Notes: a model not told the origin generated them from the letters alone. Shown: positions 7,456 through 24,000, counted from the first letter of the stretch. The stretch is 24,000 bases of DNA from Candidatus Sigynarchaeum calidifontis (GCA_030587475.2 JAUQYZ020000243.1:12007-36006), one strand, 5' to 3'. Numbers and translations are program-made.

Positions 7456-9306
7456 ATGGTACAATCGAAAATCTTACGGGTCAATTTATCCACGGAAAGC
7501 GTTTCCATCGAGAACACGAAGCAAGAAGACTTGGAACTATATATCGGGGGCCAAGGCGTCGCGGCGGCTATGTTCACCCGCGAGGTAGCACCGGGCACGG
7601 ATGCATTCGACCCGGCGAACGAGATCATCTTCTCTGTCGGTCCTTTTTGCGGCACCGCCGTCCCACTATGCGGGAGGCACTTCGTGCTATCGAAATCGCC
7701 GCTCACGGGGCTGATCGGCGAGGCATCGTCCGGCGGGTTCTTCGGCAAGGAGTTGAAATGCACCGGCTTCGACCATGTCGTCATCACGGGCAAGAGCGCC
7801 AAGCCTGTCTATCTCTTGATAAAGGATGGTACCGCCAGCATCAAGGACGCGTCGGAACTGTGGGGGAAGGGCACGCGCGCCACGGAAGCAAGGATCAAGA
7901 AGGAACTCGGGGACAACACGGTCAAGATAGCATCCATAGGCCCCGCGGGTGAAAACCTCGTGCGGTTTGCCTCCATCATGAACGAGCACGACCGTGCCGC
8001 GGGTCGCTGCGGGCTCGGCGCTGTCATGGGTGCCAAGATGCTGAAGGCGATCGCGGTGAAGGGCACGGGCAAGGCACCAGTGGAGAACGAGGACGCGCTC
8101 AAGGAGGCATCGCAAAAGCTACGGGATCTCATCAAGACCAGCCCCCAAGCGATTGCCTACAGCTCGTTCGGGACGCCGTCTGGCATGGATAGCATGGAGT
8201 CCTATGGCGACATACCCGTCAACAACTACCGCGAGAGCAGGTGGAAGGGAAACAAGGGACTCGGCGCCGAGGCGCTCGCCAAGCGCGGCGAGATCAAGAA
8301 ACACGGTTGCTTCAATTGCCCTGTCGCTTGCACGGGGCTGGTCAAGCATGGCGAGGAGCTCGTGCGCTGGCCGGAGTACGAGACGCTCGCGATGCTCGGA
8401 TCGAACTTGCTCGTCGGCGACCTCGAATCCATCATCCGCTGGAACGTTATGGTCAACGATCTTGGCATGGACACGATTTCACTCGGAGCGGTAATCGGTG
8501 CATTCCTCGAGGCTATTGAAAAGGGACTTCTTTCGGTTAACCTCGACGAGCTCGGGTTCACGAAGGAGGTCATCCCGGAGAAAGGTGAGACCTACAAAAT
8601 CTGGGGGTCAGTACCCGCCATCGAAAAATTAATCGCCATGGTCGCTCGCCGGGAGGGCATCGGGAACGATCTTGCGGAGGGCACGAAAAGATTCGTGAAG
8701 GCGAGGAATTTGCCCTCCGAACTCGCGACGCACGGGAAGGGGCTCGAGGTGCCCGCGCACGAGCCACGCGCTTGCGACATGACGGCACTCGACTATGCAA
8801 CGACGCCTCGAGGCGCGTACCATTGTTACATGCCCGTCCATCTCATCGTTAACATGAACCTGAAGAAGGACATCGGCATCGACAAGGCGGTTGACCGTTT
8901 CAGCGCGAACACGGCCGATGGCAAGAATGGCCTCGATGTCACGGCGGAGGTAGTAGTGAAGATGCAAGATGCGGCCGAGGCCTATTCGGCATGCGGTGGA
9001 TGCATGTTCGGTTTCGAATTCGTTTCCGAAGTCACGCCATGGCTGGCGGCATTGAACGCGATCACGGGCAAGGTCCGGACGCTCGATGATTGGATGCACG
9101 CGGGCCGGCGGCTGATCGACTTGAAACGATCCTACAGCATCAAATGTGGCATCACGAAGGCGGATGACACGCTCGGCCCGCGATTTTTCCAGGCCATCCC
9201 GAAGGGAGGCACGAAGCAGCACGTCCCGCCCCTCGACCAGCTCTTGCCGCGATACTACGCGCTTCGAGGCTGGGATCCCGAAGGCCGCCCTCGAAATGCG
9301 ACATGA
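7456..9306 (+). CDS. aor: Aldehyde:ferredoxin oxidoreductase family (tungstopterin, 4Fe-4S) enzyme, paralog 1
   Basis: 616 aa. N-terminal KILRVNLST...YIGGQG, GPAGENLVRFASIMNEHDRAAGRCGLGAVMGAKMLKAIAVKG, Cx2Cx3C cluster motif CFNCPVAC, NDLGMDTIS (pterin motif DxxGxD-type) and GLEVPAHEPR. Subfamily (AOR/FOR/WOR) not assignable by eye. Confidence 0.92.
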   Translation: MVQSKILRVNLSTESVSIENTKQEDLELYIGGQGVAAAMFTREVAPGTDAFDPANEIIFSVGPFCGTAVPLCGRHFVLSKSPLTGLIGEASSGGFFGKELKCTGFDHVVITGKSAKPVYLLIKDGTASIKDASELWGKGTRATEARIKKELGDNTVKIASIGPAGENLVRFASIMNEHDRAAGRCGLGAVMGAKMLKAIAVKGTGKAPVENEDALKEASQKLRDLIKTSPQAIAYSSFGTPSGMDSMESYGDIPVNNYRESRWKGNKGLGAEALAKRGEIKKHGCFNCPVACTGLVKHGEELVRWPEYETLAMLGSNLLVGDLESIIRWNVMVNDLGMDTISLGAVIGAFLEAIEKGLLSVNLDELGFTKEVIPEKGETYKIWGSVPAIEKLIAMVARREGIGNDLAEGTKRFVKARNLPSELATHGKGLEVPAHEPRACDMTALDYATTPRGAYHCYMPVHLIVNMNLKKDIGIDKAVDRFSANTADGKNGLDVTAEVVVKMQDAAEAYSACGGCMFGFEFVSEVTPWLAALNAITGKVRTLDDWMHAGRRLIDLKRSYSIKCGITKADDTLGPRFFQAIPKGGTKQHVPPLDQLLPRYYALRGWDPEGRPRNAT

Positions 9307-10284: not shown

Positions 10285-12123
10285 ATGTCAATCAACATGA
10301 AACTCTTGAAAATTGACCTTACAAACGGAAAATCGAGCACCTTGCCTCTTGACAAGTCGCTTTACAAGGCATTCGTCGGGGGCGCGGGAATGGCAGCACG
10401 GATCTTGTACCCGATGCTCAACGTGCGTATAGATGCATTGTCTCCTGCCAATCCTCTTCTTTTTATGGCTGGCGCGTTGGCTGGCACGCTTGCGCCGAAT
10501 TTCGGGCGACACGTCGTTTGTGCTCGATCCCCGTTGACTGGCATTTGGGGCGAGTCCAATTGCGGAGGCACGTGGGGGGCGGAGCTCAAGCTGGCGGGCT
10601 GGGACGGCATATTGCTGCTCGGCGCGGCAAAAGATTGGACACAAGTGGTGATCAAGGACGATGATGTCCAGTTACTCGATGCACGAACCCTTGCTGGAAA
10701 GCGCGTGACCGAAACCGAAGCGACGATAAAGAAAGACATCGGCGAGAACAAGCTCAAGATATCGAGTATCGGCCCTGCCGGCGAGCACCTTGTCAAATAC
10801 GCCGCAATCATCTCCGATGAAGGCCGCGCGGCAGGACGCACGGGCATGGGCGCGGTCATGGGATCCAAGAAGGTCAAAGCAATTTCGATAATCGGGACAA
10901 AAAAACCAACGATCGCGGATCCGGCGAAGTTTAACGAGGCCAAGCAACAGCTGCAGCAAGAAATCAAGGATAACTTCACGCTGAACATGTTCAGTGATCT
11001 TGGCAATGCGGGCTATGTTGACATGGCTAGCGTGACCGGGGATCTTGCGTTCAAATATTTCACCAAAGGCGAATGGGACGGTGCATATGATATCTCCGGT
11101 GCGAGTATGAAAGAATCGATTCTCAAGAAACAATTCTTCTGCAAGCAATGCATCGTCGGCTGCGGTCGCATCGTCGATGTGCCGGAGGGCAAGTACAAGA
11201 CCCCCGGCCCAGTGCATGGTCCAGAATACGAGACTATCGGAGCCTTCGGTGCAACCATGCTCTGCCGGGATCTCAAGGCTATCGCCCAGGCGAACTATTT
11301 ATGCAACGACTTCGGTGTCGACACGATCAGTTGCGGTGTTTCCATCGGGTTTGCCTATTATTTGCAAGAAAAGGGCTTGTTGCCTCCAGCCAAGATCGAG
11401 GGCTTAAAACTCGAATGGGGGAATCTAGATCCTGCCATCGCCTTGATAAGCAAGATTGCCAATCGAGAGGGCATCGGAAACGTTCTAGCCGAGGGCGTGA
11501 TGGGCATCGCGGGGCATTTCGGCGTTCCTTTCGACGAGGCCGCTGCAGTTAATGGAATGGAGGTGCCGTTCCATGATGCACGCGCATATGTTGGTTCGGC
11601 TTTGGAATATGCGACGTCGCATCGAGGAGCATGCCACCAGTCTGCCCAGTATTACTTGACAAGCATGGGCGCGCCGTTTCCAGACTGGGGCATCATGCCC
11701 ATCGATCGATTCGAGCACGAGGGTGTTGCTGAATGCGTCGCCAAGCTTCAAGACATGCGGGCAGTCTTCCAGTCCTTGTCGCTCTGTAATTTCGTTGTGC
11801 CGAGCTCCGCCACGCTTCTGGCAGATTTGTTTTCGTCGGCGACGGGGGTGCCAATGACGAGGGAGGAGCTCATCCTCGCGGGCGAGCGGATCTGGACCTT
11901 GCGCCGCCTCATCAACTTGAATCTTGGATATTCGCCCACGTCAGAGAAGTTGCCGGCCATCTTGCTGAAACCGCTCGAGGGGGGAACGAGCGGGACGGTT
12001 CCAAACCTTGAAAAGATGCTGGCAGAATGGTACGCGTATCGTGGCTGGAATCGGGCTACTGGAAAGCCTCCAGAATCCAAGATCAAGAGCCTGGGATTGC
12101 ATGAGCTCAAATCAATTGTTTGA
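10285..12123 (+). CDS. aor: Aldehyde:ferredoxin oxidoreductase family (tungstopterin, 4Fe-4S) enzyme, paralog 2
   Basis: 612 aa. KLLKIDLTNG...FVGGAG, GPAGEHLVKYAAIISDEGRAAGRTGMGAVMGSKKVKAISIIG, Cx2Cx3C motif CKQCIVGC, NDFGVDTIS, MEVPFHDAR and SLSLCNF (candidate fourth Cys ligand). The start could instead be ATG 10297 (MKLLKIDL). Confidence 0.92.
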   Translation: MSINMKLLKIDLTNGKSSTLPLDKSLYKAFVGGAGMAARILYPMLNVRIDALSPANPLLFMAGALAGTLAPNFGRHVVCARSPLTGIWGESNCGGTWGAELKLAGWDGILLLGAAKDWTQVVIKDDDVQLLDARTLAGKRVTETEATIKKDIGENKLKISSIGPAGEHLVKYAAIISDEGRAAGRTGMGAVMGSKKVKAISIIGTKKPTIADPAKFNEAKQQLQQEIKDNFTLNMFSDLGNAGYVDMASVTGDLAFKYFTKGEWDGAYDISGASMKESILKKQFFCKQCIVGCGRIVDVPEGKYKTPGPVHGPEYETIGAFGATMLCRDLKAIAQANYLCNDFGVDTISCGVSIGFAYYLQEKGLLPPAKIEGLKLEWGNLDPAIALISKIANREGIGNVLAEGVMGIAGHFGVPFDEAAAVNGMEVPFHDARAYVGSALEYATSHRGACHQSAQYYLTSMGAPFPDWGIMPIDRFEHEGVAECVAKLQDMRAVFQSLSLCNFVVPSSATLLADLFSSATGVPMTREELILAGERIWTLRRLINLNLGYSPTSEKLPAILLKPLEGGTSGTVPNLEKMLAEWYAYRGWNRATGKPPESKIKSLGLHELKSIV

Positions 12124-12270: not shown

Positions 12271-13692
12271 ATGTCCGAAACTAGCAATCCCCCACCATCG
12301 CGCACGCTTCTCGGCTGGCGCTTGGTCTTGTTTGCAATTGGCACATTGGGGCAAATGGCTCCGATTGGCTTTTACAACACGTACGCGACCACCTTCTATA
12401 ACTTGACCGTCGGGCTTAATCCCACCATCACGTTTACGGGGCTATTCCTTGGACTGACCACGTTTGCCGTCATGGCACCTGTTTTTGGCACGATAGTCGA
12501 TAATAAATCGCCGGGGCGGCTTGGAAAACGCAAGCCGTTCTTGCTCCTGGGCATTCCGCTCATCATCGTGCTCATGATAGTCGCATGGATGCCCCCGCTG
12601 TGCCCGATGGAGGGGGGCGTGATCGTCGACCCGAACTACATGCCGACGACGGTGTATTACCTCGTCGTGACGCTGCTCGTGTATTTGAACCAGGCGTTGC
12701 TGGTCAGCACGTACCTGTCAATGCTCTCGGAGCAATCAACGGATCAAGATAACCGCGTCAAGATAGCGACGCTCCAAGGTATCTTCAGCATCATCGGCAC
12801 CGTGCTCTCGATCCTCGTCCCGATCACCCTGGAGAGCAAGCTCGTCGATCGAACCAACACCTACTGGTTTACCGTTTCTGGCCAGTATCTCACGTCAATA
12901 TTACCAGTGGTCGGGGTCATTTTCGCGTTGGTCGGCGCGGGTTCCTTCATCGCGGTGTACCTGGCATCGGACGAGTCGTTCCTCGCCACGCGTGCCACCA
13001 AGGAACGGCCACGAACAGCCCTCCGAGAAACCTTCAGCCAGATCGCAGCCCCCTTTTCCGACAAGAACTACCGATATTGGCTCGGTAACGCCTTTTTCTT
13101 CAACATGGCGATCCGCATCTTGATCGTCATCTTGATCCCCGTCATGCGCTTTGTGCTCGAGTTGGAAGAAAATCAAAACATCTGGTTTTTCGTTGCCATC
13201 ATTCCTTTCGCCCTCGGCGGATATGTCCTCTGGGCTCGGAAGATAAAAACATCAGGGCTGAAGGCATCCTATGGCTTGAGCTTGCTCGTGAACGTCATCT
13301 TCGCATTCGTCGCGCTGGTTTTCCTCATACCGATGGAGCCGGGAATCCGGTTCGCTCTCGGTGCCGTCGTCTTGGGCATGTTGATATCCTCGCTCGTCGG
13401 CGGGTACTTGTTTCCGAACCCCATCGTGAGCACGCTGGTCGATAGAGCGCCCTCCGCGATGCGGGCAAGGGCGGACGCGCTCGGGCGCGGGATATCGGGG
13501 AGTTACTTCGGCTTGTACATTTTCTCTTATAACATATCGCAAGCGCTCACCAACATCATCCTGCTATTCATCATCACGCAAGAGACGAAGACGAACCCCC
13601 TCTACATCCTGGCAACCCTTCCAGTCGCGGGGATCCTCGTGTTGATTTCTTACTTGTTTCTTCGCAAGCTCGACTTGCCAAAAATGAAGTAG
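12271..13692 (+). CDS. MFS-superfamily transporter, glycoside-pentoside-hexuronide (GPH)/MelB-like cation symporter family
   Basis: 473 aa with about 12 TM helices. The loop 2-3 motif FGTIVDNKSPGRLGKRKPFLLLGIPL matches the GPH signature D..(s/t)...G+R+P. A TATA-like AGTTTTATTTGAA lies about 30-40 nt upstream. Confidence 0.7.
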   Translation: MSETSNPPPSRTLLGWRLVLFAIGTLGQMAPIGFYNTYATTFYNLTVGLNPTITFTGLFLGLTTFAVMAPVFGTIVDNKSPGRLGKRKPFLLLGIPLIIVLMIVAWMPPLCPMEGGVIVDPNYMPTTVYYLVVTLLVYLNQALLVSTYLSMLSEQSTDQDNRVKIATLQGIFSIIGTVLSILVPITLESKLVDRTNTYWFTVSGQYLTSILPVVGVIFALVGAGSFIAVYLASDESFLATRATKERPRTALRETFSQIAAPFSDKNYRYWLGNAFFFNMAIRILIVILIPVMRFVLELEENQNIWFFVAIIPFALGGYVLWARKIKTSGLKASYGLSLLVNVIFAFVALVFLIPMEPGIRFALGAVVLGMLISSLVGGYLFPNPIVSTLVDRAPSAMRARADALGRGISGSYFGLYIFSYNISQALTNIILLFIITQETKTNPLYILATLPVAGILVLISYLFLRKLDLPKMK

Positions 13693-15530: not shown

Positions 15531-15592
15531 GATACGATGATTAACCATGCCGGCGATCAGCTTGATGACGAACGCGAACGCGTGGTTTGGCA

Positions 15593-17062
15593 ATGAATCG
15601 ATCCAAAGGCGTGATCGTGGCAGGTCTATTACTGCTCGCCATGGTTCCCGTGCTCATCACGATGCACGCGATGCTCGTGCAAGAAACGATCAAGATCGTC
15701 GATCCGATGATCGGCGCCCCGCAGTTCAGCAAGCCTGGCGGATCGTTCATGGTCTTCGTCGAAAAAACGGGCTGGGTAGATCCTGGCTCGTGGAAGGCGC
15801 AGATGCAGTCAGTCGACTTCCCGTGGGCAGCCGCGATCCCCCTTCCCATCGAGGACTCGGGCATGTTTCGCGAAGGCCGACACGTGTTAACCGTTCGGGT
15901 GCCGTCCACGTCTTTACCCGGCTTGTACGACTTGAACGTGTCGTGCACGTCGCTGGGCACGCGCTACTCGGCCATCGAGCCCCACTCGGTCTGCATCTAT
16001 GCGAACGTGTCCACGCTGCGATTCGCGCACCTCACGGATCCGCACGTTACCATTCCGGACAAGACCGTGAACATGAACGTCGCCCCGCCGCACACATCGG
16101 CCACGTGGATGGAGCGCTCGATCAACAACAATTTACGATGGTTACTCGAGAACGTTTCAGTTGCACGTCCGGAGTTTGTCCTGCTCACGGGCGACATCGC
16201 CACTCGCGGGCTTGAGGATGAGTTCAAGACGGCCAGGGACATCATAATGGCCTCTAAAATTCCCGTTCTCTGCACGCTCGGCAATCATGACCATCGAAGT
16301 CCCCCGAGCTTCGCGTATTACCTTGCTCCCCCGTATTTCTCGCGCGTGATAGACGCTTGGCGAATCATCTGCCTGGACACCGGCGCAACCGAGGGTAACG
16401 GCTTGTTCGGGGCTCAATTAAGGTGGTTTGGCGATGAGCTCGTGGCGGCAGCGGCGGCGGGGCAGCAAGTCTTCGTCGGCATGCACATCCCATCGACAAC
16501 GGAGCCGATTAGCGGCTACACGATCGCGGGAAACGAGGAATTCCGGGCGCTGTGTAAGCAATATGGAGTCCGCGGGATTTTCACCGGCCACCATCACTAT
16601 TCCGATGCCGCGCATGATAACGGGTCGCAAGTCTTGATACCCGATCCCATGCCGCCGAGTGCAAAACCAATCTACGTGAAGACCGGGAGCACGACGCTCG
16701 ATTACGGCAACGGGGATCGCGGCATCGGCTGGCGATTCGTGTGTAGCTACAGGAATGGATCCTTGTCCATTGGCTATGACATAGCCGGGGCGGGCACGAG
16801 TGACCCGGTCGAAGACATCCCGCTGAATGGGTTATTTCGAGCGGATGGGGCCCTCTGGATAAACCTTACCAATTGTTATCGCATCACCTTCACGAACGTC
16901 ACGATCCCCGTGCAATTCTCACTCTCGTCCATTAGCGACCAATTCATCCCCTCTGAAGGCACGATCATTGGCCAAGTCCGCACTGAAACCATGGCCGGCC
17001 TTTTACTACGTATTACATTGCCTGAAACTAGCAGCAAGCAAATCACGTTCACGAGGATGTGA
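15593..17062 (+). CDS. Signal-anchored extracytoplasmic calcineurin-like metallophosphoesterase with N- and C-terminal beta-rich domains
   Basis: The ORF track start 15587 is TTG. ATG 15593 (MNRSKGVIVAGLLLLAMVPVLI) is preferred. All five MPE motifs are present in order: LTDPH, LLTGDIATRG, LGNHDH, VGMHIP, TGHHHY. One N-terminal TM helix and 7 N-x-S/T sequons in the ectodomain. Confidence 0.82.
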   Translation: MNRSKGVIVAGLLLLAMVPVLITMHAMLVQETIKIVDPMIGAPQFSKPGGSFMVFVEKTGWVDPGSWKAQMQSVDFPWAAAIPLPIEDSGMFREGRHVLTVRVPSTSLPGLYDLNVSCTSLGTRYSAIEPHSVCIYANVSTLRFAHLTDPHVTIPDKTVNMNVAPPHTSATWMERSINNNLRWLLENVSVARPEFVLLTGDIATRGLEDEFKTARDIIMASKIPVLCTLGNHDHRSPPSFAYYLAPPYFSRVIDAWRIICLDTGATEGNGLFGAQLRWFGDELVAAAAAGQQVFVGMHIPSTTEPISGYTIAGNEEFRALCKQYGVRGIFTGHHHYSDAAHDNGSQVLIPDPMPPSAKPIYVKTGSTTLDYGNGDRGIGWRFVCSYRNGSLSIGYDIAGAGTSDPVEDIPLNGLFRADGALWINLTNCYRITFTNVTIPVQFSLSSISDQFIPSEGTIIGQVRTETMAGLLLRITLPETSSKQITFTRM

Positions 17063-18351
17063 TGGCCACGAGCGCAAGTATCCCATCTAACAAGATCGAT
17101 CTGTCGTGGCTGCAGCGCACGTTCGAGACCCATCTCCCCGTTATGGCCCTTTGTACCATCGTCATCCCCAGCATCGTGTTCGGGATGTTCACGATGGGGC
17201 TCAACCCTGAAGATAGCGAGCTCCGCACGACATACTACATCGTGATCACGGCGGCGATGCCCGTATCGATGCTGGGCGGTTTCTTGCTCGCGATGATGCC
17301 GGCTCGAAGGGTTCTCCTCATCGCTCTCGATGCGGCGACCGGGGTGGTGGCGTTCTTGTCGTACGCGTGGTTTCAGGCCAGGATATCGATCGTGCCGGCC
17401 GACCATGCATCGACCTTCCCGGGCTGGCAATGGCAGTCCCAATACCAGCAAGACGTGCTAACGGCGCTCGTCATCGTCATGTCGCTGCGCTGCGGCATGT
17501 CCTTCCCTCGCCGCGGAGCGATGCCATCCGCGGATGGAGACACGTCGGCCGCTTGGGCAACGGCGTGTTCCTTGATCGTGATTGCTTCCGTGTATTTCGT
17601 CAGCTGGCTGTTCGGGACATGGTGGCTCCTCCACTTGCAAGTTGCGTGCATCGCGTTTGGGAGTTGCGGCGTGCAAGTGCTGCTCCCGCGTTATCCAAGC
17701 TCGACCGACGAGCATCCGGCAGCGACCGGGATGCGGAATACAACATGGATGCCCATCCTCTTCGGTTTCGGCATCCCGCCCCTCATGCTTGCCCAGGGCT
17801 TCACTATAGGCGTAGCTTTCGTCGTGAATAGTTGGTCTGCTAGCTGGTGTGCCCACATTGGCATTATGATACTCACGGCGAGCCTTGTTTCGTGCGGGAT
17901 CTTGTCAGCAGAGAAGCGGCTCGCGAAGGTAATGGATACCGCGTGGATACTCATCACAGCAGACGCGTTGCTGCTATTTCTTGTCATCTTGCTTCATTCC
18001 CGGGCCATTGTTCCCGTTGCGCCCAGCTGGAGCATGGCAAGCGGGGTTTCGGCTGGGCTGATTGCCACTGCCTTGGCCAAGCTCGCAACTAACCATCGCC
18101 ATCCCTTCCGTGCAACAGTGCACTTGATGCTGGCCTTGTTTTGCACTACCATCGGCATTGGCGGGGGTATCGCGTACTATCTCTATTCGGGCCAGTCGAT
18201 TTCAATCTTGCCAGGTGGGGTTTCATCTGAATTACTGATTGCTTTCACCATTTCCGGTTCTGCGATTTTCGCTGCCATCATGATAATTTTGATTATCGGC
18301 ATGCGTGCCATCATCAAGGTGCGGCATCACGAGGTGAAAGCTTCGCATTGA
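17062..18351 (+). CDS. Polytopic membrane protein (about 12 TM), no recognisable family
   Basis: ATG 17062 overlaps the upstream stop (TGATG), with GAGGA 4 nt upstream; the track start GTG 17059 is also possible. About 429 aa, almost entirely hydrophobic helices with short loops. The first loop contains NPEDSE. Confidence 0.65.
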   Translation: MATSASIPSNKIDLSWLQRTFETHLPVMALCTIVIPSIVFGMFTMGLNPEDSELRTTYYIVITAAMPVSMLGGFLLAMMPARRVLLIALDAATGVVAFLSYAWFQARISIVPADHASTFPGWQWQSQYQQDVLTALVIVMSLRCGMSFPRRGAMPSADGDTSAAWATACSLIVIASVYFVSWLFGTWWLLHLQVACIAFGSCGVQVLLPRYPSSTDEHPAATGMRNTTWMPILFGFGIPPLMLAQGFTIGVAFVVNSWSASWCAHIGIMILTASLVSCGILSAEKRLAKVMDTAWILITADALLLFLVILLHSRAIVPVAPSWSMASGVSAGLIATALAKLATNHRHPFRATVHLMLALFCTTIGIGGGIAYYLYSGQSISILPGGVSSELLIAFTISGSAIFAAIMIILIIGMRAIIKVRHHEVKASH

Positions 18352-21239
18352 GCGGAATCTCGGAGCGAGTGACGGTTGCCGAGCGCTGTGGCCCGGTTGC
18401 CCGATGGGCTTTCACGCTCGTGTATCTGGGGCTCTCGCTCGCAGTTTTTTTCACATATCCCGTGATAGGGTACATCGCGGAGCACGGTTCATTCGATGTG
18501 GAAGCTTTCCTATCGGGTGACGTGTTCGGCAACTACCGCATCAGCCTGGTCGATGCGCTGCTCGATGCAGAGCATTTACTTGCGAACTTCATGACCGTGA
18601 TCCTTTTCTCGCTCGTGCTCTCCGCTTTCCTCGTCCATTACGGACCTTCCAAGGGTGAGGCAAGACCGGAGGAATTCTCGAAGCGATATTTTGGCCGGGC
18701 CAAGTGGCTCGGCTTCGCTGCTGCCACGATACTCGGCACGGCCATCGTGCTGACCGTCACCGGCATTGGATACACCCGGCCCGAGCTCGAGGGGCGTACC
18801 GCCTCGATAATGCTCGGGAACTTCCACCCGGAGAACTTCTCGGTGCACGTGTTCTACTATCTTTTCCTGTTCTCGGGACTGCCAGGCTTTTTTTACATCA
18901 TTGCTGCAGGGAAGGCAAACCCACGGCGGAGTACATGGCGCCCAGAACGTCCGCGGGTCGGCTTGTTTCTCCTGATCGTTTCCTTGCTAATCCTGGAGAT
19001 CGTCGCCCTGTTCTCGCCTTTGGTGATGTGGGACGTGATCAATGCGCGCACCTCGATTCGCGAGATCTTGTACTCGATCATCGACAGCGCGTTCATCACG
19101 GCCATCGTGCTCGTAATAGAGTGGCGCGACCGGGCTCGCTTGTCGCAGCCAGCCATCAAGGCAGACACGGACGCTGGCATGCCGAGGATCGTAAAGCACA
19201 TGATCACGTGGAGCATCCCCATAATTGCATTCCTGGGTCTCGTGATTTTCATGTTTTCGGAAGGGTATCTCGAACTCTTCATCAGCGTTGCATATTACTT
19301 GTCAAGAACATGGACATTTGCCTTTGCGGTCGTGTTCACCTTGTTCTTGTACCACGCCGGCACTCTCGTGAAGCTTGGCTACAAGCCCGCTAGATGGAAG
19401 TTGCCCAATCTCTCCCGCGTCAAGCCACGCGTGCTAGCTGCCTTGTTGATCGCCAACTTTGCCATCGCGGGATCCTTGGTCGTGATAAAGGCCCATGTAG
19501 AATCGCCGGTCCTAATAATGAACCAGGCAGGGTACCTTCCCGCGCAAGACAAGACGTTCCTCGTGAAGACGAGGTATTTGCACCAATCCGGGTGCTTCGA
19601 CGTTCTCGAAGCATCGAGCGGGATACCTGTCCTCAGCGCGGCACCCCTCGAATACGTCGGCACGAGCTGGGGTGCGCATTATTACCGCGGAAACGCGTCG
19701 GCCATCTCGACGAGCGGTTCCTACCGGATCGCCACGCGATTCGTCGATAATGGAATGGTCACCGCGGCCACGGCGCCGGAGCCGTTTAACGTCGGGACGG
19801 GCGTGTACGACCTCGCGGCGAGGCGCGGGTACGAGTTCTTTTACTACCAGCGGTGCGGCACGCGGGTGCACGAGATCGTGCCCGGTTACGTGGGCCACGA
19901 GCCGTGCCACTTGGATGATGGCATCATGTACAAGGGAGCCTGGTTGAATCTCACGGGAGCATGGCATTCTGCTGGCGATTATGCCAAGCATATATATTGG
20001 GGCATGCATTGCGAGGCTGTCATCTACTCGTGCTTGTTCGCGTACGAATTGGCGCCAGATCTTTATGATGGCATCGATCTCGTTACCGTGAATGGGGCCC
20101 CGATGCCAAATGGCATCCCGGACATCCTTGACGAGGCCATGTTCGGCCTCGAATATTACGAACGCAGCTTCCTCGACAATGGTACACTGCTAGGGTCGAT
20201 CGTGGGGGACCTGGTGTTTTGCCCGCCGGAGAAGGACACGGACAACATTCCTGGCACCGCGGACGACCGCCATCTCTTCTGGGAGGAAAACCACGTGCTC
20301 GCCCGGCCCTACGAGGCCATGTACGTCGCCGCGAGCTTCGCCAAGATGGCATGCATCGCTCGCGACAAGTCGTATTTCAGCAGCCGCGAGGCGGAAATGG
20401 CGCGATTCGCCGCTAACATCTACGGGAACTTTAGCACCGCGATAAACGTCACTGCCCCGAACCACCCGGCCATCAACAGCGAAGCATCGTCGCTGCTTCT
20501 CGCCACGCTCGAGATGTACCGGTATTTCGGCACGCCATCGCTGTCGAGCAAGTTGGATGCGGTCGCGGCCTACATCCACGATCATTTCCCCGATCCTGCA
20601 GTGCTGTGGGGTGACGAGCTAGGTGAATGGAACCGGGTGCCTGGTTATTTCTGTTACTGGGCGCTCGTGAACGGATCGGCGACGGCGAGGGCCATGGCGG
20701 CTGACGTCGCCCTTGCAATGTTCAATGGGCGGTTCAAGCCGCTCGCATCGGAGCCAGGGAACTTGTTCGGCATGATGGAAGTCAAGCTCGATGATGGCCG
20801 AACCGAGCCGTTCTGGTCGCGCATCGGCCTCAACTCGTATTACTTGACCGCGGCCTTTTCCGCGTTCATGGCATACAACATCACCGGCGGCACGCGCCTT
20901 GATATCCTGGATTTCGGCTTGAAGCAAATCGGTTTCGTGCTCGGGACGAACCCGTATGGAATATCAATGGTCGAGGGCGTCGGCACGAGGAACCCGCCGA
21001 TCTACCACCACAGGTACGCGTACATCCCGGGGAACCCGCGCGGTGCCGTGCCCGGGGCCATCATCAACGGCATCATCGAGAAGGGCGGGTTGCCGTTCAT
21101 GAACGTGAACTCGGCGGCTGGCTCCAGCATCCAAGACCACCTCGCGGATGCAATGTCGAACGAGCCATGGTTGCCGCACAACGTGCACTTCATGTATGTC
21201 ATGGCGGCGTTACTCGGCTGCGTCCAAGGCATGCGATAG
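18348..21239 (+). CDS. Fusion protein: about 9-TM N-terminal domain + CelD_N-type Ig-like domain + glycoside hydrolase family 9-like (alpha/alpha)6 domain
   Basis: 963 aa. The TTG start overlaps the upstream TGA (TTGA), with GAGGTGA 10 nt upstream. Residues about 1-390 form nine hydrophobic helices. NQAGYLPAQDKTFLV...GSYRI...PFNVGTGVY matches the cellulase Ig-like N-domain. FFYYQRCG and GAWHSAGDYAKH correspond to GH9 GGW.DAGD..K. VEGVGTRNPPIYHHR matches GH9 signature 1. D-x4-A-x3-E-x5-N (IQDHLADAMSNEPWLPHN) has GH9 signature-2 spacing. Confidence 0.72.
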   Translation: MSGISERVTVAERCGPVARWAFTLVYLGLSLAVFFTYPVIGYIAEHGSFDVEAFLSGDVFGNYRISLVDALLDAEHLLANFMTVILFSLVLSAFLVHYGPSKGEARPEEFSKRYFGRAKWLGFAAATILGTAIVLTVTGIGYTRPELEGRTASIMLGNFHPENFSVHVFYYLFLFSGLPGFFYIIAAGKANPRRSTWRPERPRVGLFLLIVSLLILEIVALFSPLVMWDVINARTSIREILYSIIDSAFITAIVLVIEWRDRARLSQPAIKADTDAGMPRIVKHMITWSIPIIAFLGLVIFMFSEGYLELFISVAYYLSRTWTFAFAVVFTLFLYHAGTLVKLGYKPARWKLPNLSRVKPRVLAALLIANFAIAGSLVVIKAHVESPVLIMNQAGYLPAQDKTFLVKTRYLHQSGCFDVLEASSGIPVLSAAPLEYVGTSWGAHYYRGNASAISTSGSYRIATRFVDNGMVTAATAPEPFNVGTGVYDLAARRGYEFFYYQRCGTRVHEIVPGYVGHEPCHLDDGIMYKGAWLNLTGAWHSAGDYAKHIYWGMHCEAVIYSCLFAYELAPDLYDGIDLVTVNGAPMPNGIPDILDEAMFGLEYYERSFLDNGTLLGSIVGDLVFCPPEKDTDNIPGTADDRHLFWEENHVLARPYEAMYVAASFAKMACIARDKSYFSSREAEMARFAANIYGNFSTAINVTAPNHPAINSEASSLLLATLEMYRYFGTPSLSSKLDAVAAYIHDHFPDPAVLWGDELGEWNRVPGYFCYWALVNGSATARAMAADVALAMFNGRFKPLASEPGNLFGMMEVKLDDGRTEPFWSRIGLNSYYLTAAFSAFMAYNITGGTRLDILDFGLKQIGFVLGTNPYGISMVEGVGTRNPPIYHHRYAYIPGNPRGAVPGAIINGIIEKGGLPFMNVNSAAGSSIQDHLADAMSNEPWLPHNVHFMYVMAALLGCVQGMR

Positions 21240-21340: not shown

Positions 21341-21946
21341 GTGCCCGCCTTTTTCCACATCAGACCATCACATGCCAAGGTCGGTGCCATCACGATTGCT
21401 GCTTCCGGTATTTTGCTGCTTTTCGGGCTTTGGATACAAGTTCTCGAGGTATCGGTCATCCCTTCTGGTTACAACGTGCTTCACGTGGAGTTTGCCTTCA
21501 CGGCGGAGCAGATGGACAAGGTCCTCGAATCGTGGATCGCTTTGAACGTGCTGCACGTCGAGGTGTTTATTGACCAGCTCGACGTGCTGATGATGCCAGG
21601 ATGGAGCGTCATGTTCTTCGGCGTGCAAGTCCTCGGCTTGCGGGCACTCGACGCTCTCGGCGTGGGTGGACGTTTCCGAAGAGTATCGTGGAAATTGGTA
21701 TATTTTCCCCTGGTCGCCGGGGCTGCAGACACGGTCGAGAATGCCATCATCTTCCAGGTGCTGAGTAACCCGGCAACGTACAACCGGGTCCTTGTCCCTG
21801 TTCTGTTTACATTCGTCGTGACCAAGTGGGGGATGCTGTTCACGGGCATCGTGATCGGTGCCGTTGCAAACATCGGGGCGCTCGCGGTCGTGTTGATGCG
21901 TGCCAAGACCACGTCGCATCAGCGCGGGATCACGGGCATGGTTTAA
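21341..21946 (+). CDS. Small membrane protein (about 4 TM), unknown function
   Basis: 201-aa ORF with a GTG start and no upstream in-frame ATG. Clear hydrophobic helices. The larger antisense ORF 21368..22243 is Arg/Pro/Ser-rich and judged a shadow. Start codon uncertain. Confidence 0.5.
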   Translation: MPAFFHIRPSHAKVGAITIAASGILLLFGLWIQVLEVSVIPSGYNVLHVEFAFTAEQMDKVLESWIALNVLHVEVFIDQLDVLMMPGWSVMFFGVQVLGLRALDALGVGGRFRRVSWKLVYFPLVAGAADTVENAIIFQVLSNPATYNRVLVPVLFTFVVTKWGMLFTGIVIGAVANIGALAVVLMRAKTTSHQRGITGMV

Positions 21947-21965
21947 ACGCGTTCCATGCCGTGGA

Positions 21966-23249
21966 ATGACCATGGATCCTGGGAAAATCGAGGCGGTTCG
22001 CGCAGCCGAGGTCGCGGGCATTTGGTTTGCCCTTGCATCTGCCGCAGCATTTCTCCTCGACGAGTTGCTTTTCGGGGTCAAGTCGGCTTCCGAGCCAAGA
22101 ATCGTCGAGGCCGCAGCGGGGATACTGCTCGGCCTCCTTTCTTGTCTCGTGATCTCGCATCTCGCCGCTAGGTTTCCCCGGCTCGCAGCAATCATGAAAA
22201 TCACCGCCGTTGCATTGCTCGCAAGTCTTGGCGTTATCAACAATCTCGTTCACCTACCTTTAAACTTCCTAGCTCGGTTCGCGGTCTTGATTATCGCTAC
22301 ATTGCTCGCTTGGATCGAAACATCACGCGCGCGATCCTACAGCGATGATCTCGAACGTGGTAATGCAATCCAATTGCAGCGCATGAGCATCGCGATCGTC
22401 GTAGCTTCGCTTCTCGCCGGCGGGAGCCTCTGGCAGCAGCGTGAGAATTTCTATGCATGGCCTTCCGACTTGGAAGTGCTCATGTACACGATCACGGGCA
22501 CGGTGGCTGTCTGTCTCGCGGTGCTGCTCTTGATGGTAGAGCGCGATGCGATAGCAAATGGCGACATGGCGATGGTTCCGCGAACCGAAACGGGTGCGGA
22601 ACGGCCTCCCTGGACCACGGCACTCTTGGCGCTCTGCTCTGGCATGGCAGTGGGACTGTACATGTCCCTTTCGGCGCTCGTCGCCCAGAACACGGCGCTC
22701 GAATTCCCGAGCCGGGTCGTGTATGCAATCAACACGATGGTTCCAGTCGCTATGCTCGCGATCTGCATGGCTGGCACGAGGGCATCCAATATACCGGGAA
22801 CAGCACGAGTGCGGCGTTCCTTCATCAATGAGCCAGCTGGCTTGATTCTCCTCATGTTGACGATCGCGATTACCATCGGGGCCCCATGGATTCTTGGCAC
22901 GGCGAGCATCGTCGACTCCACTGTCGCAGGAACGATGCACGTCGCCGGGCTGATCTCGCTGCCATTGCTAGTATATTACATGCTGTCGAAACTGGCCGTG
23001 ATTCGCCAGACTGGTGGTTATCATGCCCTCGTCTCGTCGCTCGGCAGCGCGGGGCTCGTCATCGGCATCGCGGGGTACCTCGTCGGGGGAACCACGTACA
23101 ACATGGACTTCTACGTCGGCCTGGCCTTCACGGTGCTCATCGCCCATGGAGTGGTGGTGGCTTGGCTAATGGAGCGGTTCCCAAAAGAGCAGCCGCGGTG
23201 TGATGTCCAAGCAAGGCCATCGAGGGCAAAAATGGAGGTGGCGTCTTGA
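21966..23249 (+). CDS. Polytopic membrane protein (about 12 TM), no recognisable family
   Basis: The track ORF starts at 21900, overlapping the previous gene. ATG 21966 (MTMDPGKIE), 19 nt after the upstream stop, is preferred. About 12 hydrophobic helices, with one longer loop (DAIANGDMAMVPRTETGAERPPW). Confidence 0.62.
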   Translation: MTMDPGKIEAVRAAEVAGIWFALASAAAFLLDELLFGVKSASEPRIVEAAAGILLGLLSCLVISHLAARFPRLAAIMKITAVALLASLGVINNLVHLPLNFLARFAVLIIATLLAWIETSRARSYSDDLERGNAIQLQRMSIAIVVASLLAGGSLWQQRENFYAWPSDLEVLMYTITGTVAVCLAVLLLMVERDAIANGDMAMVPRTETGAERPPWTTALLALCSGMAVGLYMSLSALVAQNTALEFPSRVVYAINTMVPVAMLAICMAGTRASNIPGTARVRRSFINEPAGLILLMLTIAITIGAPWILGTASIVDSTVAGTMHVAGLISLPLLVYYMLSKLAVIRQTGGYHALVSSLGSAGLVIGIAGYLVGGTTYNMDFYVGLAFTVLIAHGVVVAWLMERFPKEQPRCDVQARPSRAKMEVAS

Positions 23250-23250
23250 G

Positions 23251-24000
23251 ATGCTGAAACCGGGGGCAAGGAGGCCTGTCTGGGCAGTGGCGCTGGTTGC
23301 GGTCGTGATCGTCTCATCGATCCCTTTCATGCTGGAGATCTACCAAGACGCCAGGCTCGTGCAAACCCATCCGCTAGCACGCGAGAAACACGTGCTCGCC
23401 TACTATTACCCGTGGTTTCACAACGGCACCAATTACACGGGCGCGCTCGGCGACGCCATCGTGGAAAAAGGCAACGCGACGGGTTGGGCGAGGTGGGGCT
23501 CGCCCGAGGATCCGTGCTATAACTACACCCTCGCGTCGTCTTTAACCCAGCAACAAGTCTACTACTGGCGAAACGGGCTGGAGCGGAACTACTCGTGGGC
23601 ATCCATCGCCCATTGGCCGCTCGATGGCTTGTATGACGTCTCCGATCCCGACCAGATCAATCGCCATTTCGACCGCATGAACCGGGCCGGCATCGATGTC
23701 TTGATCGGCGACTTTTTCGGGGATTACGAGTTCCAGGACCCGACGATGGACGGCTATCTCGCCGTGGCTGCCAACCGCTCGGCCGAAGGGAAGCCGTCAC
23801 CGAAGATCACGTTCATGCTCGGCGTCTCGTGGGGCCCCGAGCAAGAATGGTGGGGGCCGACGAGCCGCAATGGCAGCGGCTGGGGCATCATCAGCCACGC
23901 GGAGTACATCTACCACTACGTGAAATCGTATCTCGATGCCCACGGTAACGATGCCCACTTCTTCCGGGTCAACGGCAAGCCGGTTTTTTTCACGTGGGCG
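23251..24000 (+). CDS. Signal-anchored GH99 / WbsX-like TIM-barrel glycosidase-like protein (3'-partial, runs off the window)
   Basis: Not in the ORF track because there is no stop before the window end. ATG 23251 lies 1 nt after the upstream stop, with GGAGGTG 9 nt upstream. My translation is MLKPGARRPVWAVALVAVVIVSSIPF...VLAYYYPWFHNGTNYTG...HWPLDGLYDVSDPDQINRHFDRMNRAGIDVLIGDFFG...VNGKPVFFTWA. The YYYPWF ... P.(L)G.Y(D/S)..D...I..H...M..AGID pattern is typical of the GH99/WbsX clan. 7 sequons in 250 aa. Confidence 0.55.
   Translation, partial: MLKPGARRPVWAVALVAVVIVSSIPFMLEIYQDARLVQTHPLAREKHVLAYYYPWFHNGTNYTGALGDAIVEKGNATGWARWGSPEDPCYNYTLASSLTQQQVYYWRNGLERNYSWASIAHWPLDGLYDVSDPDQINRHFDRMNRAGIDVLIGDFFGDYEFQDPTMDGYLAVAANRSAEGKPSPKITFMLGVSWGPEQEWWGPTSRNGSGWGIISHAEYIYHYVKSYLDAHGNDAHFFRVNGKPVFFTWA

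What the first reader, a model, noticed from the sequence alone, without database searches (positions are those of the whole stretch)
18348..21239. Polytopic-membrane::Ig-like::GH9-like fusion whose DAGD catalytic motif reads SAGD
Seen in sequence: nine hydrophobic helices (about aa 1-390) are fused in one ORF to a CelD_N-like Ig domain and a GH9-like barrel. The GH9 motif GGW.DAGD is GAWHSAGD here, with Ser at codon 541 (nt 19968-19970) and Asp at codon 544 (nt 19977-19979). The C-terminal signature keeps the Glu (codon 939, nt 21162-21164) with canonical D-x4-X-x3-E-x5-N spacing. Established knowledge: in characterised GH9 enzymes the two Asp of DAGD position and activate the nucleophilic water, and the signature-2 Glu is the acid. 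Known membrane-bound GH9s (for example plant KORRIGAN-type) carry a single anchor, not a 9-TM domain. Inference: either an enzyme with altered mechanism or specificity, or a glycan-binding module coupled to a membrane channel or transferase-like domain. An odd TM count with a cytoplasmic N-terminus would place the GH9 part outside, consistent with its 7 sequons.
Basis: partly seen in the sequence, partly recalled or inferred. Interest (0 to 1): 0.68.

Follow-up and report, generated by a model that had tools for sequence, protein, structure and literature searches.

The report
Asgard surface glycanase fused to partner
This archaeal gene fuses a cellulase-family (GH9) enzyme that sits outside the cell to an eight-helix membrane protein of an undescribed family; related Lokiarchaeia encode the same two parts as neighbouring genes, which points to a conserved two-part cell-surface sugar-processing machine.

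Summary
ORF 18348-21239 (963 aa) encodes nine TM helices, an Ig-like domain and a full-length GH9 domain. GH9's DAGD motif reads SAGD (S541, D544), and the catalytic Glu (E939) is present.

New findings:
- The N-terminal eight helices are a separate, very rare protein family: 21 hits among 1.84 billion representatives, no Pfam match, no fold match for a confident model.
- Every named member is from Lokiarchaeia/Promethearchaeota.
- In 8 of 8 stand-alone cases looked up, and in two more metagenome loci, that gene is followed directly by a separate gene for TM anchor + Ig + GH9. The window ORF is therefore a natural fusion of a conserved two-gene module.
- Three fused lineages exist.
- SAGD is invariant in this GH9 clade (28/28), as are the base Asp and acid Glu (28/28 each) and the His of the His/Arg signature (Arg 27/28). 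This argues for an altered but active enzyme.
- A second, secreted GH9 clade also has SAGD without any 8-TM domain.
- Topology and conserved sequons place the GH9 part outside. The membrane partner's conserved residues also face outward.

Best reading: an obligate membrane-partner/ecto-glycanase complex, probably for glycan foraging. The partner's role is inferred, not shown.

Novelty: new variant of a known kind. Interest 0.64.

The parts
18348..21239 (+). Whole fused ORF (963 aa, TTG start overlapping the upstream stop)
   Evidence: Six further full-length homologues, 61-79% identical.
18348..19382 (+). 8-TM domain (aa 1-345), member of an undescribed Lokiarchaeial membrane-protein family. 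Predicted N-in, C-in.
   Evidence: Exhaustive profile search: 21 hits in 1.84e9 representatives, mostly stand-alone proteins of 320-400 aa. No Pfam family. AF2 pLDDT 82, pTM 0.85. No fold match in PDB or BFVD.
18468..18578 (+). Extracytoplasmic loop 1 (aa 41-77) with family motif Y..T(L/F)..xLLD(V/F)(D/E)xF. D73 (nt 18564-18566) is 95% conserved.
18768..18848 (+). Extracytoplasmic loop 2 (aa 141-167) with motifs G.xRPxL and N(F)YPExFS. This is the most conserved region of the family.
   Evidence: Mean identity 0.55, against 0.13-0.30 for cytoplasmic loops.
19383..19430 (+). K/R-rich cytoplasmic linker (aa 346-361) at the fusion junction. It corresponds to the stop/start junction of the split genes.
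19431..19502 (+). TM9 (aa 362-385), the single N-terminal anchor of the GH9 partner. Motif LIANFAIAG, with fixed 22-residue spacing from the Asn to the NQxGY start of the Ig domain.
   Evidence: Absent from the stand-alone 8-TM proteins. Present at the N-terminus of every split GH9 partner. The mid-helix Asn motif occurs in 12 of 16 sequences.
19503..19793 (+). Short conserved connector plus Ig-like (CelD_N-type) domain (aa 386-482)
   Evidence: Pfam CelD_N is weak here but passes in homologues. The clade profile aligns it to the Ig domains of 6FHJ and 3X17. The region is beta-rich even in the low-confidence (pLDDT 46) full-length model.
19806..21200 (+). GH9 catalytic domain (aa 487-951)
   Evidence: PF00759 E=1.5e-29, full profile length. 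PDB relatives 3X17, 6FHJ, BoGH9A, CelD.
19968..19979 (+). SAGD motif: S541 in place of the first Asp, D544 the presumed base
   Evidence: S 28/28 and D 28/28 in the clade
21006..21014 (+). H887-H888-R889 of GH9 signature 1
   Evidence: H887 28/28, R889 27/28
21162..21164 (+). E939, catalytic acid, in NEPWLPHN
   Evidence: 28/28
15587..17062 (+). Operon neighbour: N-terminally anchored, sequon-rich calcineurin-like phosphoesterase
   Evidence: Synteny in L001, L002, L005.
17059..18351 (+). Operon neighbour: 430-aa polytopic membrane protein with no known family. Overlaps both flanking genes by 4 nt.
   Evidence: Unrelated to the 8-TM family.
21341..21946 (+). Conserved downstream membrane protein of about 200 aa, no known family
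21900..24000 (+). 449-aa polytopic membrane protein followed directly by an anchored GH99 (cut by the window end)
   Evidence: The pair moves as a unit in L002 and L005.
12271..13692 (+). MFS_2 (glycoside-pentoside-hexuronide type) sugar transporter upstream. Also next to the split module in L007.

Best explanation
The ORF is a natural fusion of two proteins that work as a 1:1 complex at the cell surface of Lokiarchaeia.

Part one (aa 1-345) is an 8-TM membrane protein of an undescribed family. Both its ends are cytoplasmic, and its conserved residues lie on its outer loops.

Part two (aa 362-963) is a type-II ectoenzyme: a single anchor helix, a short rigid connector, an Ig-like domain and a GH9 barrel.

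Shown: the two parts are encoded by adjacent, overlapping genes in most relatives and have been fused in three lineages. The GH9 part is predicted to be outside. Within this clade the first Asp of DAGD is always Ser, while the base Asp, the acid Glu and the His of the His/Arg signature are invariant (the Arg is 27/28).

Inferred: the GH9 part is an active inverting beta-1,4-glycanase with a remodelled water-activating site (S541 plus a 3-residue insertion after DYxK), not a dead lectin. The anchor helix and the Ig domain dock on the 8-TM protein, so the catalytic cleft is held at the membrane over the partner's conserved outer face.

Most likely role: foraging of a beta-1,4-linked, possibly decorated, glucan. 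The 8-TM partner would capture, hand over or import the products. The partner's exact activity is unknown.
For: Pairing:
- 8 of 8 stand-alone 8-TM genes looked up are followed within 0-4 nt, or with an overlap, by a gene for TM anchor + CelD_N + GH9. Two further split pairs (L017, L021) were found from the GH9 side.
- In that scan, no GH9 outside this group had an 8-TM neighbour.
- Fused forms occur in three separate lineages: the window clade, L019 and P0063.

Rarity and novelty of the partner:
- 21 hits in 1.84e9 representatives, no Pfam family, and no fold match for a pTM 0.85 model.
- All named members are Lokiarchaeia/Promethearchaeota.

Topology:
- Strictly alternating K/R-rich loops.
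- 7 ectodomain sequons against 2.8 expected, conserved across homologues.

Outer-face function:
- 18 of 28 positions that are at least 70% conserved lie in extracytoplasmic loops.
- The anchor helix carries a conserved mid-membrane Asn..G motif at a fixed distance from the Ig domain.

Active enzyme:
- D544 28/28, E939 28/28, H887 28/28 and R889 27/28 across a clade that diverges to about 29% identity.
- A secreted GH9 clade with extra N-terminal domains also has SAGD.

Catabolic context:
- MFS_2 in the window, L001, L002 and L007. TrmB in L015. FGGY kinase in L011. GHMP kinase and a BNR protein in L075.
- No glycosyltransferase next to any module.
- One MAG carries two modules.
- Lokiarchaeal expression of a GH94 cellobiose phosphorylase is reported in bioRxiv 10.1101/826495.
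Against: - No direct evidence of physical contact. The full-length model was unusable (pLDDT 46), and no complex could be modelled.
- No biochemical data exist for any SAGD GH9. In characterised GH9 enzymes both Asp residues of DAGD contribute to base catalysis (PMC4221708), so activity may be low or different.
- The 8-TM protein resembles no known transporter. Its strongest conservation is in loops rather than mid-membrane, although polar E216 and D246 are embedded.
- Sugar-catabolism neighbours are not universal, and some loci are short contigs.
- No cytoplasmic beta-glucosidase or phosphorylase lies in the cluster.
Confidence: 0.45

Rival explanations
1. Biosynthetic or remodelling machine. 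The 8-TM protein would export or present a nascent or lipid-linked beta-glucan of the archaeon's own envelope or EPS. The GH9 would trim or edit it, as KORRIGAN (GH9) does with plant cellulose synthase or BcsZ does in bacterial cellulose synthesis.
For: The split GH9 partner has the same type-II single-anchor topology as KORRIGAN (KORRIGAN topology from established knowledge). The module is an obligate pairing with a polytopic protein whose conserved acidic residues face outward. The window-clade operon also carries GH99, a phosphoesterase and three further unknown polytopic proteins, all facing outward. No cytoplasmic catabolic glycosidase is nearby.
Against: No glycosyltransferase or nucleotide-sugar gene is next to any of about 12 modules. 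The 8-TM protein has only short cytoplasmic loops and no GT domain, and it has no GT-C or synthase fold match. Several paralogous modules can occur per genome, and the neighbours are transporters, kinases and a TrmB regulator, which fits catabolism better.
Confidence: 0.2
2. Trans-complementation or gating. The SAGD GH9 would be inactive alone, and the 8-TM partner would complete or switch on the active site, for example through a loop carboxylate such as D73 or E162. Hydrolysis would then occur only in the assembled membrane complex.
For: The loss of the first Asp coincides with 8-TM coupling in the Asgard clade: SAGD in all coupled lineages except the basal L010. The partners of that DAGD exception differ at R144 and N158. 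Conserved acidic residues sit on the outer loops.
Against: A second GH9 clade (P0065-P0079) has SAGD with a signal peptide and no 8-TM domain in the same polypeptide, so Ser at this position does not need this partner. D73 is also conserved in the partner of the DAGD enzyme. No structural model of the interface exists.
Confidence: 0.1
3. Sensor or pseudoenzyme. The GH9 domain would be a non-catalytic glycan-binding module, and the 8-TM domain would transduce binding, acting as a receptor, or simply tether a lectin.
For: One of the two Asp residues regarded as invariant in GH9 is missing.
Against: The base Asp, the acid Glu, the His of the His/Arg signature and W941/N945 are all invariant, and the Arg is 27/28, over large divergence. 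A truly degenerate GH9 in the same data set (P0014) has lost the whole motif. The cytoplasmic loops are short, poorly conserved and lack any signalling domain.
Confidence: 0.1
4. Artefact or trivial anchor. The fusion would be a frameshift or assembly chimera, or the TM region would be only a membrane tether.
For: In most relatives the two halves are separate genes.
Against: Seven independent assemblies carry the intact 960-966 aa ORF, and two other fused lineages exist. A single anchor helix already suffices in the split forms, yet the 8-TM gene is always retained and has conserved outer loops.
Confidence: 0.02

Closest known systems
Ig-domain GH9 glycanases: C. thermocellum CelD (1CLC), metagenomic endoglucanase 3X17, Paenibacillus nanensis xanthanase (6FHJ), Bacteroides ovatus BoGH9A (6DHT)
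   Same: CelD_N-type Ig domain followed by a full-length GH9 barrel. Base Asp, acid Glu and the HxR signature are present, as are Cys/His residues at the positions of the CelD zinc site (the zinc site itself is recalled from memory). The clade profile hits 6FHJ at 4.6e-35 and 3X17 at 4.6e-33. The loop PExDTDNxPGTxDDR is shared with the xanthanase.
   Different: First Asp of DAGD is Ser. There is a 3-residue insertion after DYxK. The enzyme is membrane-anchored and obligately paired with, or fused to, an 8-TM protein. Host is archaeal (Asgard). Identity to any solved structure is low.
KORRIGAN-type plant class A GH9 (membrane-anchored endoglucanase associated with cellulose synthase)
   Same: GH9 ectodomain on a type-II single N-terminal anchor (in the split relatives). 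Functional association with a polytopic membrane protein complex.
   Different: As far as I recall, KORRIGAN keeps DAGD, has no CelD_N Ig domain, and is not fused to its partner. Its partner (CesA) is a GT2 synthase with a large cytosolic domain. The 8-TM protein here has none and is unrelated in sequence and fold.
SEDS-bPBP pairs (RodA-PBP2, FtsW-FtsI), as an architectural analogy only
   Same: A polytopic membrane protein with conserved extracytoplasmic loops is paired with a single-pass anchored ectoenzyme. In the SEDS-bPBP pairs the anchor helix and membrane-proximal domain dock on the polytopic partner, and the genes are often adjacent.
   Different: No sequence or fold similarity. Different chemistry and domain families. 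Docking is only inferred here.
Secreted SAGD GH9 clade found here (P0065-P0079, about 850-900 aa)
   Same: Ser at the first-Asp position, a 2-residue insertion after DYxK, and the base Asp, acid Glu and HHR signature all retained.
   Different: Signal peptide and extra N-terminal domains instead of a TM anchor, and no 8-TM domain. NJ bootstrap never joins it with the Asgard clade (0/100). It is uncharacterised.

Membership tests
CAZy GH9 | Catalytic (alpha/alpha)6 domain matching the family profile above the curated threshold | tested here: met
   PF00759 104 bits against a cut-off of 27.7, profile positions 1-443 of 444. PDB GH9 relatives.
CAZy GH9 | Catalytic acid Glu in signature 2 (D-x4-X-x3-E-x5-N spacing) | tested here: met
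   E939 in QDHLADAMSNEPWLPHN aligns to the Glu of 3X17. 28/28 in the clade.
CAZy GH9 | Second Asp of DAGD (catalytic base) | tested here: met
   D544. 28/28 in the clade.
CAZy GH9 | First Asp of DAGD (co-positions and activates the nucleophilic water; described as invariant, PMC4221708) | tested here: not met
   S541 aligns to the first Asp. Ser in 28/28 of the Asgard clade and 13/13 of a second clade, Asp in 27/28 of the other GH9 sequences sampled.
CAZy GH9 | His/Arg of signature 1 (..H-x-R) | tested here: met
   H887-H888-R889.
CAZy GH9 | Inverting hydrolysis of beta-1,4-glycosidic bonds | not testable with these tools
   Needs enzyme assays and determination of the product anomer.
CelD_N Ig-like domain (PF02927) | Profile match N-terminal to the GH9 barrel | tested here: inconclusive
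   20.1 bits, below the 24.6 cut-off, in this protein. Homologues pass. The clade profile aligns the region to the Ig domains of 6FHJ and 3X17.
KORRIGAN-type membrane GH9 | Single N-terminal type-II anchor, canonical DAGD, association with a GT2 cellulose synthase | tested here: not met
   9 TM helices here, SAGD, and no GT2 in any neighbourhood. Only the split relatives have the single anchor.
GT-C glycosyltransferases, Wzy/WaaL-type polymerases, SEDS (for the TM domain) | Shared polytopic fold or profile match | tested here: not met
   No Pfam or NCBIfam hit. Foldseek against the PDB gives best E=0.25 and TM-scores of 0.25 or less for a pTM 0.85 model. Foldseek sensitivity on all-helical membrane folds is limited.
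Known secondary transporters (MFS, APC/LeuT, CaCA and others) for the TM domain | Fold or profile match, internal inverted repeat | tested here: not met
   Only non-significant Foldseek hits. hhalign of the two halves gives probability 3%.
New 8-TM family, the GH9-coupled membrane partner (defined here) | About 320-400 aa, 8 TM helices, outer-loop motifs LLD(V/F)(D/E)xF and RPxL...N(F)YPExFS, and a gene directly upstream of or fused to an anchored Ig-GH9 | tested here: met

The most novel reading that the evidence does not exclude
The 8-TM protein is the founding member of a new class of membrane glycan-handling proteins (an importer, a hand-over channel, or a handler of lipid-linked glycans) with a fold not represented among solved structures. 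It forms an obligate complex with a mechanistically altered GH9 (Ser-Asp-Glu instead of Asp-Asp-Glu). Together they would be an Asgard-specific machine that couples extracellular depolymerisation directly to the membrane.
Probability: 0.3. Interest if true: 0.8.

Novelty: new variant of a known kind. Interest (0 to 1): 0.64.

Why it matters
Three reasons.

1. It gives a strong, testable prediction of a physical complex. The basis is strict gene adjacency plus three fused lineages, linking a well-known enzyme family to a membrane protein family with no sequence or fold relatives. That makes it a concrete entry point for discovering a new membrane function.

2. It identifies natural GH9 clades in which one of the two 'invariant' Asp residues is replaced by Ser while the rest of the catalytic set stays frozen. 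This bears on how GH9 enzymes activate water. It could also mark a new specificity, for example for decorated or acidic beta-glucans, given the similarity to a xanthanase.

3. The system is confined, as far as the named sequences show, to Lokiarchaeia and related Asgard archaea. Their cell-surface biology and carbohydrate foraging are poorly known, and they matter for models of eukaryote origins.

Tried and rejected
- Full-length AF2 with the 7-sequence alignment gave pLDDT 46 and was unusable, so no TM-GH9 interface could be inspected.
- The word-indexed homologue search with the diverse TM alignment returned only 4 proteins.
- The GTDB genome scan found only one locus, the P0002 contig. The alignment of all TM members was too divergent for pattern design.
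- Foldseek of the good TM model against the PDB and BFVD gave no significant match.
- hmmscan of the TM domains at E up to 10 gave only scattered noise such as CD225 and Gaa1.
- The neighbouring polytopic proteins (430, 449 and 201 aa) are not related to the 8-TM family or to each other, by BLASTP or hhalign. No internal repeat was found in the 8-TM domain.
- Literature searches for SAGD GH9 variants, Asgard GH9 or polytopic GH9 fusions found nothing relevant. The one apparent 'Lokiarchaeota + GH9' hit was GH94.
- I first thought SAGD was exclusive to 8-TM-coupled enzymes. The last homologue search overturned this by revealing a secreted SAGD clade.
- Whether the two Ser clades arose independently is not settled. 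NJ bootstrap says yes (0/100 for joint monophyly), but both share an insertion after DYxK.

Full report
**1. The observation**

The window contains an uninterrupted ORF at 18348-21239 (+), 963 aa, with a TTG start. The start overlaps the stop of the upstream gene (TTGA) and is preceded by GAGGTGA.

Pfam finds a full-length GH9 domain: PF00759, E=1.5e-29, aa 487-951, profile positions 1-443 of 444. It also finds a weak CelD_N match (E=1e-3, below the curated cut-off) at aa 387-463.

HMMER against PDB sequences aligns 'TGAWHSAGDY' with 'TGGWHDAGDY' of endoglucanase 3X17, and 'SNEPWLPHN' with 'TNEPAIDYN'. S541 therefore sits at the first Asp of DAGD, D544 at the second, and E939 at the catalytic acid.

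Hydropathy gives nine TM segments. The K/R-rich loops alternate strictly: 6, 6, 6 and 7 K+R in loops 97-121, 187-203, 258-284 and 342-361, against 1-2 in the others. This predicts N-in and GH9-out.

The ectodomain has 7 N-x-S/T sequons against 2.8 expected (P about 0.02). Each is conserved in 4-6 of 6 divergent homologues. The neighbouring anchored phosphoesterase and GH99 are also sequon-rich (16 and 28 per 1000 aa), whereas cytoplasmic enzymes of the window have 0-5 per 1000.

**2. The fusion is real, and it is a fusion of two genes**

Six further full-length homologues (61-79% identity, 960-966 aa) exist in independent assemblies named Lokiarchaeota. SAGD and the architecture are invariant in them.

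An exhaustive profile search with the TM part found only 21 proteins among 1.84 billion representatives. Most are stand-alone proteins of 320-400 aa. They end just after TM8, so the ninth helix of the fusion is not part of this family.

I looked up the contigs of eight stand-alone members: P0016, P0017, P0020, P0023, P0025, P0027, P0030 and P0033. In all eight, the next gene starts within 0-4 nt or overlaps. It encodes a 603-661 aa protein (one is cut off by the contig end) with an N-terminal TM anchor, CelD_N and GH9.

A metagenome scan from the GH9 side recovered 58 loci. Local HMM searches found the 8-TM gene only next to GH9s of this group: two further split pairs (L017, L021), the partial locus L020, and another fused form (L019, 990 aa). 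A third fused form, P0063 (1096 aa), contains the 8-TM domain at E=1.4e-24.

In the GH9 tree the three fused forms sit in different sub-clades next to split forms. Fusion or fission therefore happened repeatedly. This is classic Rosetta-stone evidence that the two proteins act together in fixed stoichiometry.

All members with a source name are 'hypothetical protein' from Lokiarchaeia/Promethearchaeota. Their GH9 partners are also named Sigynarchaeota and Hodarchaeota.

**3. The 8-TM partner**

It has no Pfam or NCBIfam family. With a 26-sequence alignment AF2 gives a confident model (pLDDT 82, pTM 0.85) of nine helices plus short structured outer-loop elements.

Foldseek finds nothing significant in the PDB (best E=0.25, TM-scores of 0.25 or less) or in BFVD. 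No GT-C, SEDS/Wzy, MFS or other transporter fold is detected. Foldseek is not very sensitive on helical bundles, so this is not proof of a new fold.

Conservation is concentrated on the outside. Mean identity is 0.47 and 0.55 for the first two outer loops, against 0.13-0.30 for cytoplasmic loops. Eighteen of the 28 positions that are at least 70% conserved are extracytoplasmic. They include D73 (95%), D/E75, R144-P145, N158 and P161.

Two polar positions are embedded in TM5 and TM6: E216 (E/Q/D/N) and D246 (D/Q). There is no internal repeat and no relation to the other polytopic proteins of the operon.

The anchor helix of the GH9 partner carries a mid-membrane motif [LIV][LIV]xN[FAL]xxxG in 12 of 16 sequences. 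The spacing from the Asn to the NQxGY start of the Ig domain is a fixed 22 residues. This fits specific helix packing and a rigid, membrane-proximal placement of the Ig domain. That docking is inference.

**4. The GH9 part**

The clade profile is closest to the Paenibacillus xanthanase 6FHJ (4.6e-35), then 3X17, BoGH9A and CelD. All are Ig-GH9 enzymes acting on beta-1,4-glucan backbones. The clade shares the loop PExDTDNxPGTxDDR with the xanthanase.

In GH9 the two Asp residues of DAGD are described as jointly providing base catalysis, with a Glu as the acid, and are regarded as invariant (PMC4221708).

Across 28 sequences of the Asgard clade, which diverge to about 29% identity, the counts are:
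- S541: 28/28
- D544: 28/28
- E939: 28/28
- H887: 28/28
- R889: 27/28
- W941 and N945: 28/28 each

A truly degenerate GH9 in the same data set (P0014) has lost the whole motif. This pattern argues for an enzyme with a modified water-activating site rather than a lectin-like pseudoenzyme.

The one 8-TM-coupled lineage that keeps DAGD (L010, partner of P0033) groups with uncoupled DAGD enzymes as the sister of the SAGD clade (92/100 NJ bootstraps).

SAGD is not unique to coupled enzymes. A second clade (P0065-P0079, about 850-900 aa, with a signal peptide and extra N-terminal domains) also has SAGD and the rest of the catalytic set. NJ bootstraps never unite the two SAGD clades (0/100). However, both carry a 2-3-residue insertion right after DYxK. 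Single versus double origin is therefore unresolved.

Either way, Ser at this position works without the 8-TM protein. That weakens the idea that the partner supplies the missing carboxylate.

**5. Context**

In the window clade the operon is, in order:
- an anchored calcineurin-like phosphoesterase
- a 430-aa polytopic protein
- the fusion (all three joined by 4-nt overlaps)
- a membrane protein of about 200 aa
- a 449-aa polytopic protein
- an anchored GH99

An MFS_2 sugar transporter lies upstream. Only the 8-TM/GH9 pair is conserved across the whole family.

Other lineages have MFS_2 (L007), a TrmB regulator (L015), an FGGY kinase (L011), and a GHMP kinase plus a BNR protein (L075) nearby. 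None has a glycosyltransferase.

One MAG carries two modules, and L020 shows a GH9 gene followed by another 8-TM gene. A preprint reports Lokiarchaeal expression of a GH94 cellobiose phosphorylase (10.1101/826495).

Together this favours a catabolic, foraging role over a biosynthetic one. The evidence is circumstantial.

**6. Verdict**

This is an altered, probably active GH9 held outside the cell. The TM region is neither a mere tether nor a recognisable channel or transferase. It is a separate, undescribed Asgard membrane-protein family that is obligately coupled to this GH9 clade.

- Shown: architecture, topology signals, the two-gene origin, the repeated fusions, clade-wide SAGD with an otherwise frozen catalytic set, and the lack of any known relative for the partner.
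- Inferred: physical docking, enzymatic activity, the substrate class, and the partner's role in capturing or importing products.

I rate it a new variant of a known kind (GH9 ectoenzyme) with a novel partner, interest 0.64.

Noticed in passing
window 21900-23249 and 23251-24000: A second pair of the same design: a 449-aa polytopic membrane protein with no known family, followed directly by an N-terminally anchored, very sequon-rich GH99 (endo-alpha-mannosidase family, cut by the window end). The pair moves as a unit, lying downstream of the fusion here and in L002 but upstream in L005. It is not related to the 8-TM family by hhalign.
   Followed up: partly
window 15587-18351: An anchored calcineurin-like phosphoesterase (16 sequons per 1000 aa) and a 430-aa polytopic protein of unknown family are translationally coupled to the fusion by 4-nt overlaps (GTGA, TTGA). 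The trio is conserved in L001, L002 and L005.
   Followed up: partly
proteins P0065-P0079 (not in the window): A separate clade of GH9 proteins of about 850-900 aa, with a signal peptide and extra N-terminal domains, also reads SAGD (TGGWHSAGDYNK) and keeps all other catalytic residues. One member is named Bathyarchaeia.
   Followed up: partly
window 19968-20010 (aa 541-554) compared with other GH9 sequences: Both SAGD clades have a 2-3-residue insertion immediately after DYxK (HIYW... in the Asgard clade, LNW.E in the secreted clade) relative to most DAGD sequences sampled. P0064 (DAGD) also has a longer loop.
   Followed up: partly
L020 1-747 and 1414-1782; L010 and L015 (same MAG, GCA_040960995.1): Modules can be multiple per genome. 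In L020 a GH9 C-terminus is followed by the start of another 8-TM gene. One MAG carries both a DAGD-type and a SAGD-type module.
   Followed up: no
L022 499-1398 and 1395-3290: One of the closest DAGD GH9 sequences without an 8-TM family neighbour still has a different multi-TM ORF overlapping its start codon. This may be an analogous or very divergent membrane partner.
   Followed up: no
window 19854-19970 (C503, C520, H521, H540): Cys/Cys-His/His residues at the positions I recall as the CelD zinc site are kept in the window clade. They are replaced (S, D, F) in the GGWFSAGD sub-clade (L016, L019, L075). The zinc-site assignment is from memory and was not tested.
   Followed up: no
window 7456-9306 and 10285-12123; L007 1387-2328; L076 9743-10106: The window carries two aldehyde:ferredoxin oxidoreductase genes flanking a zinc-ribbon protein. 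Arf-family small GTPase genes (an Asgard hallmark) lie near the split modules in L007 and L076. Duplicated eIF-1A genes lie downstream in L001 and L005.
   Followed up: no
8-TM homologues P0020-P0025 (cytoplasmic loop between TM6 and TM7): The cytoplasmic loop corresponding to window aa 258-284 expands to about 60-100 residues of K/E/N-rich low-complexity sequence in several stand-alone members.
   Followed up: no
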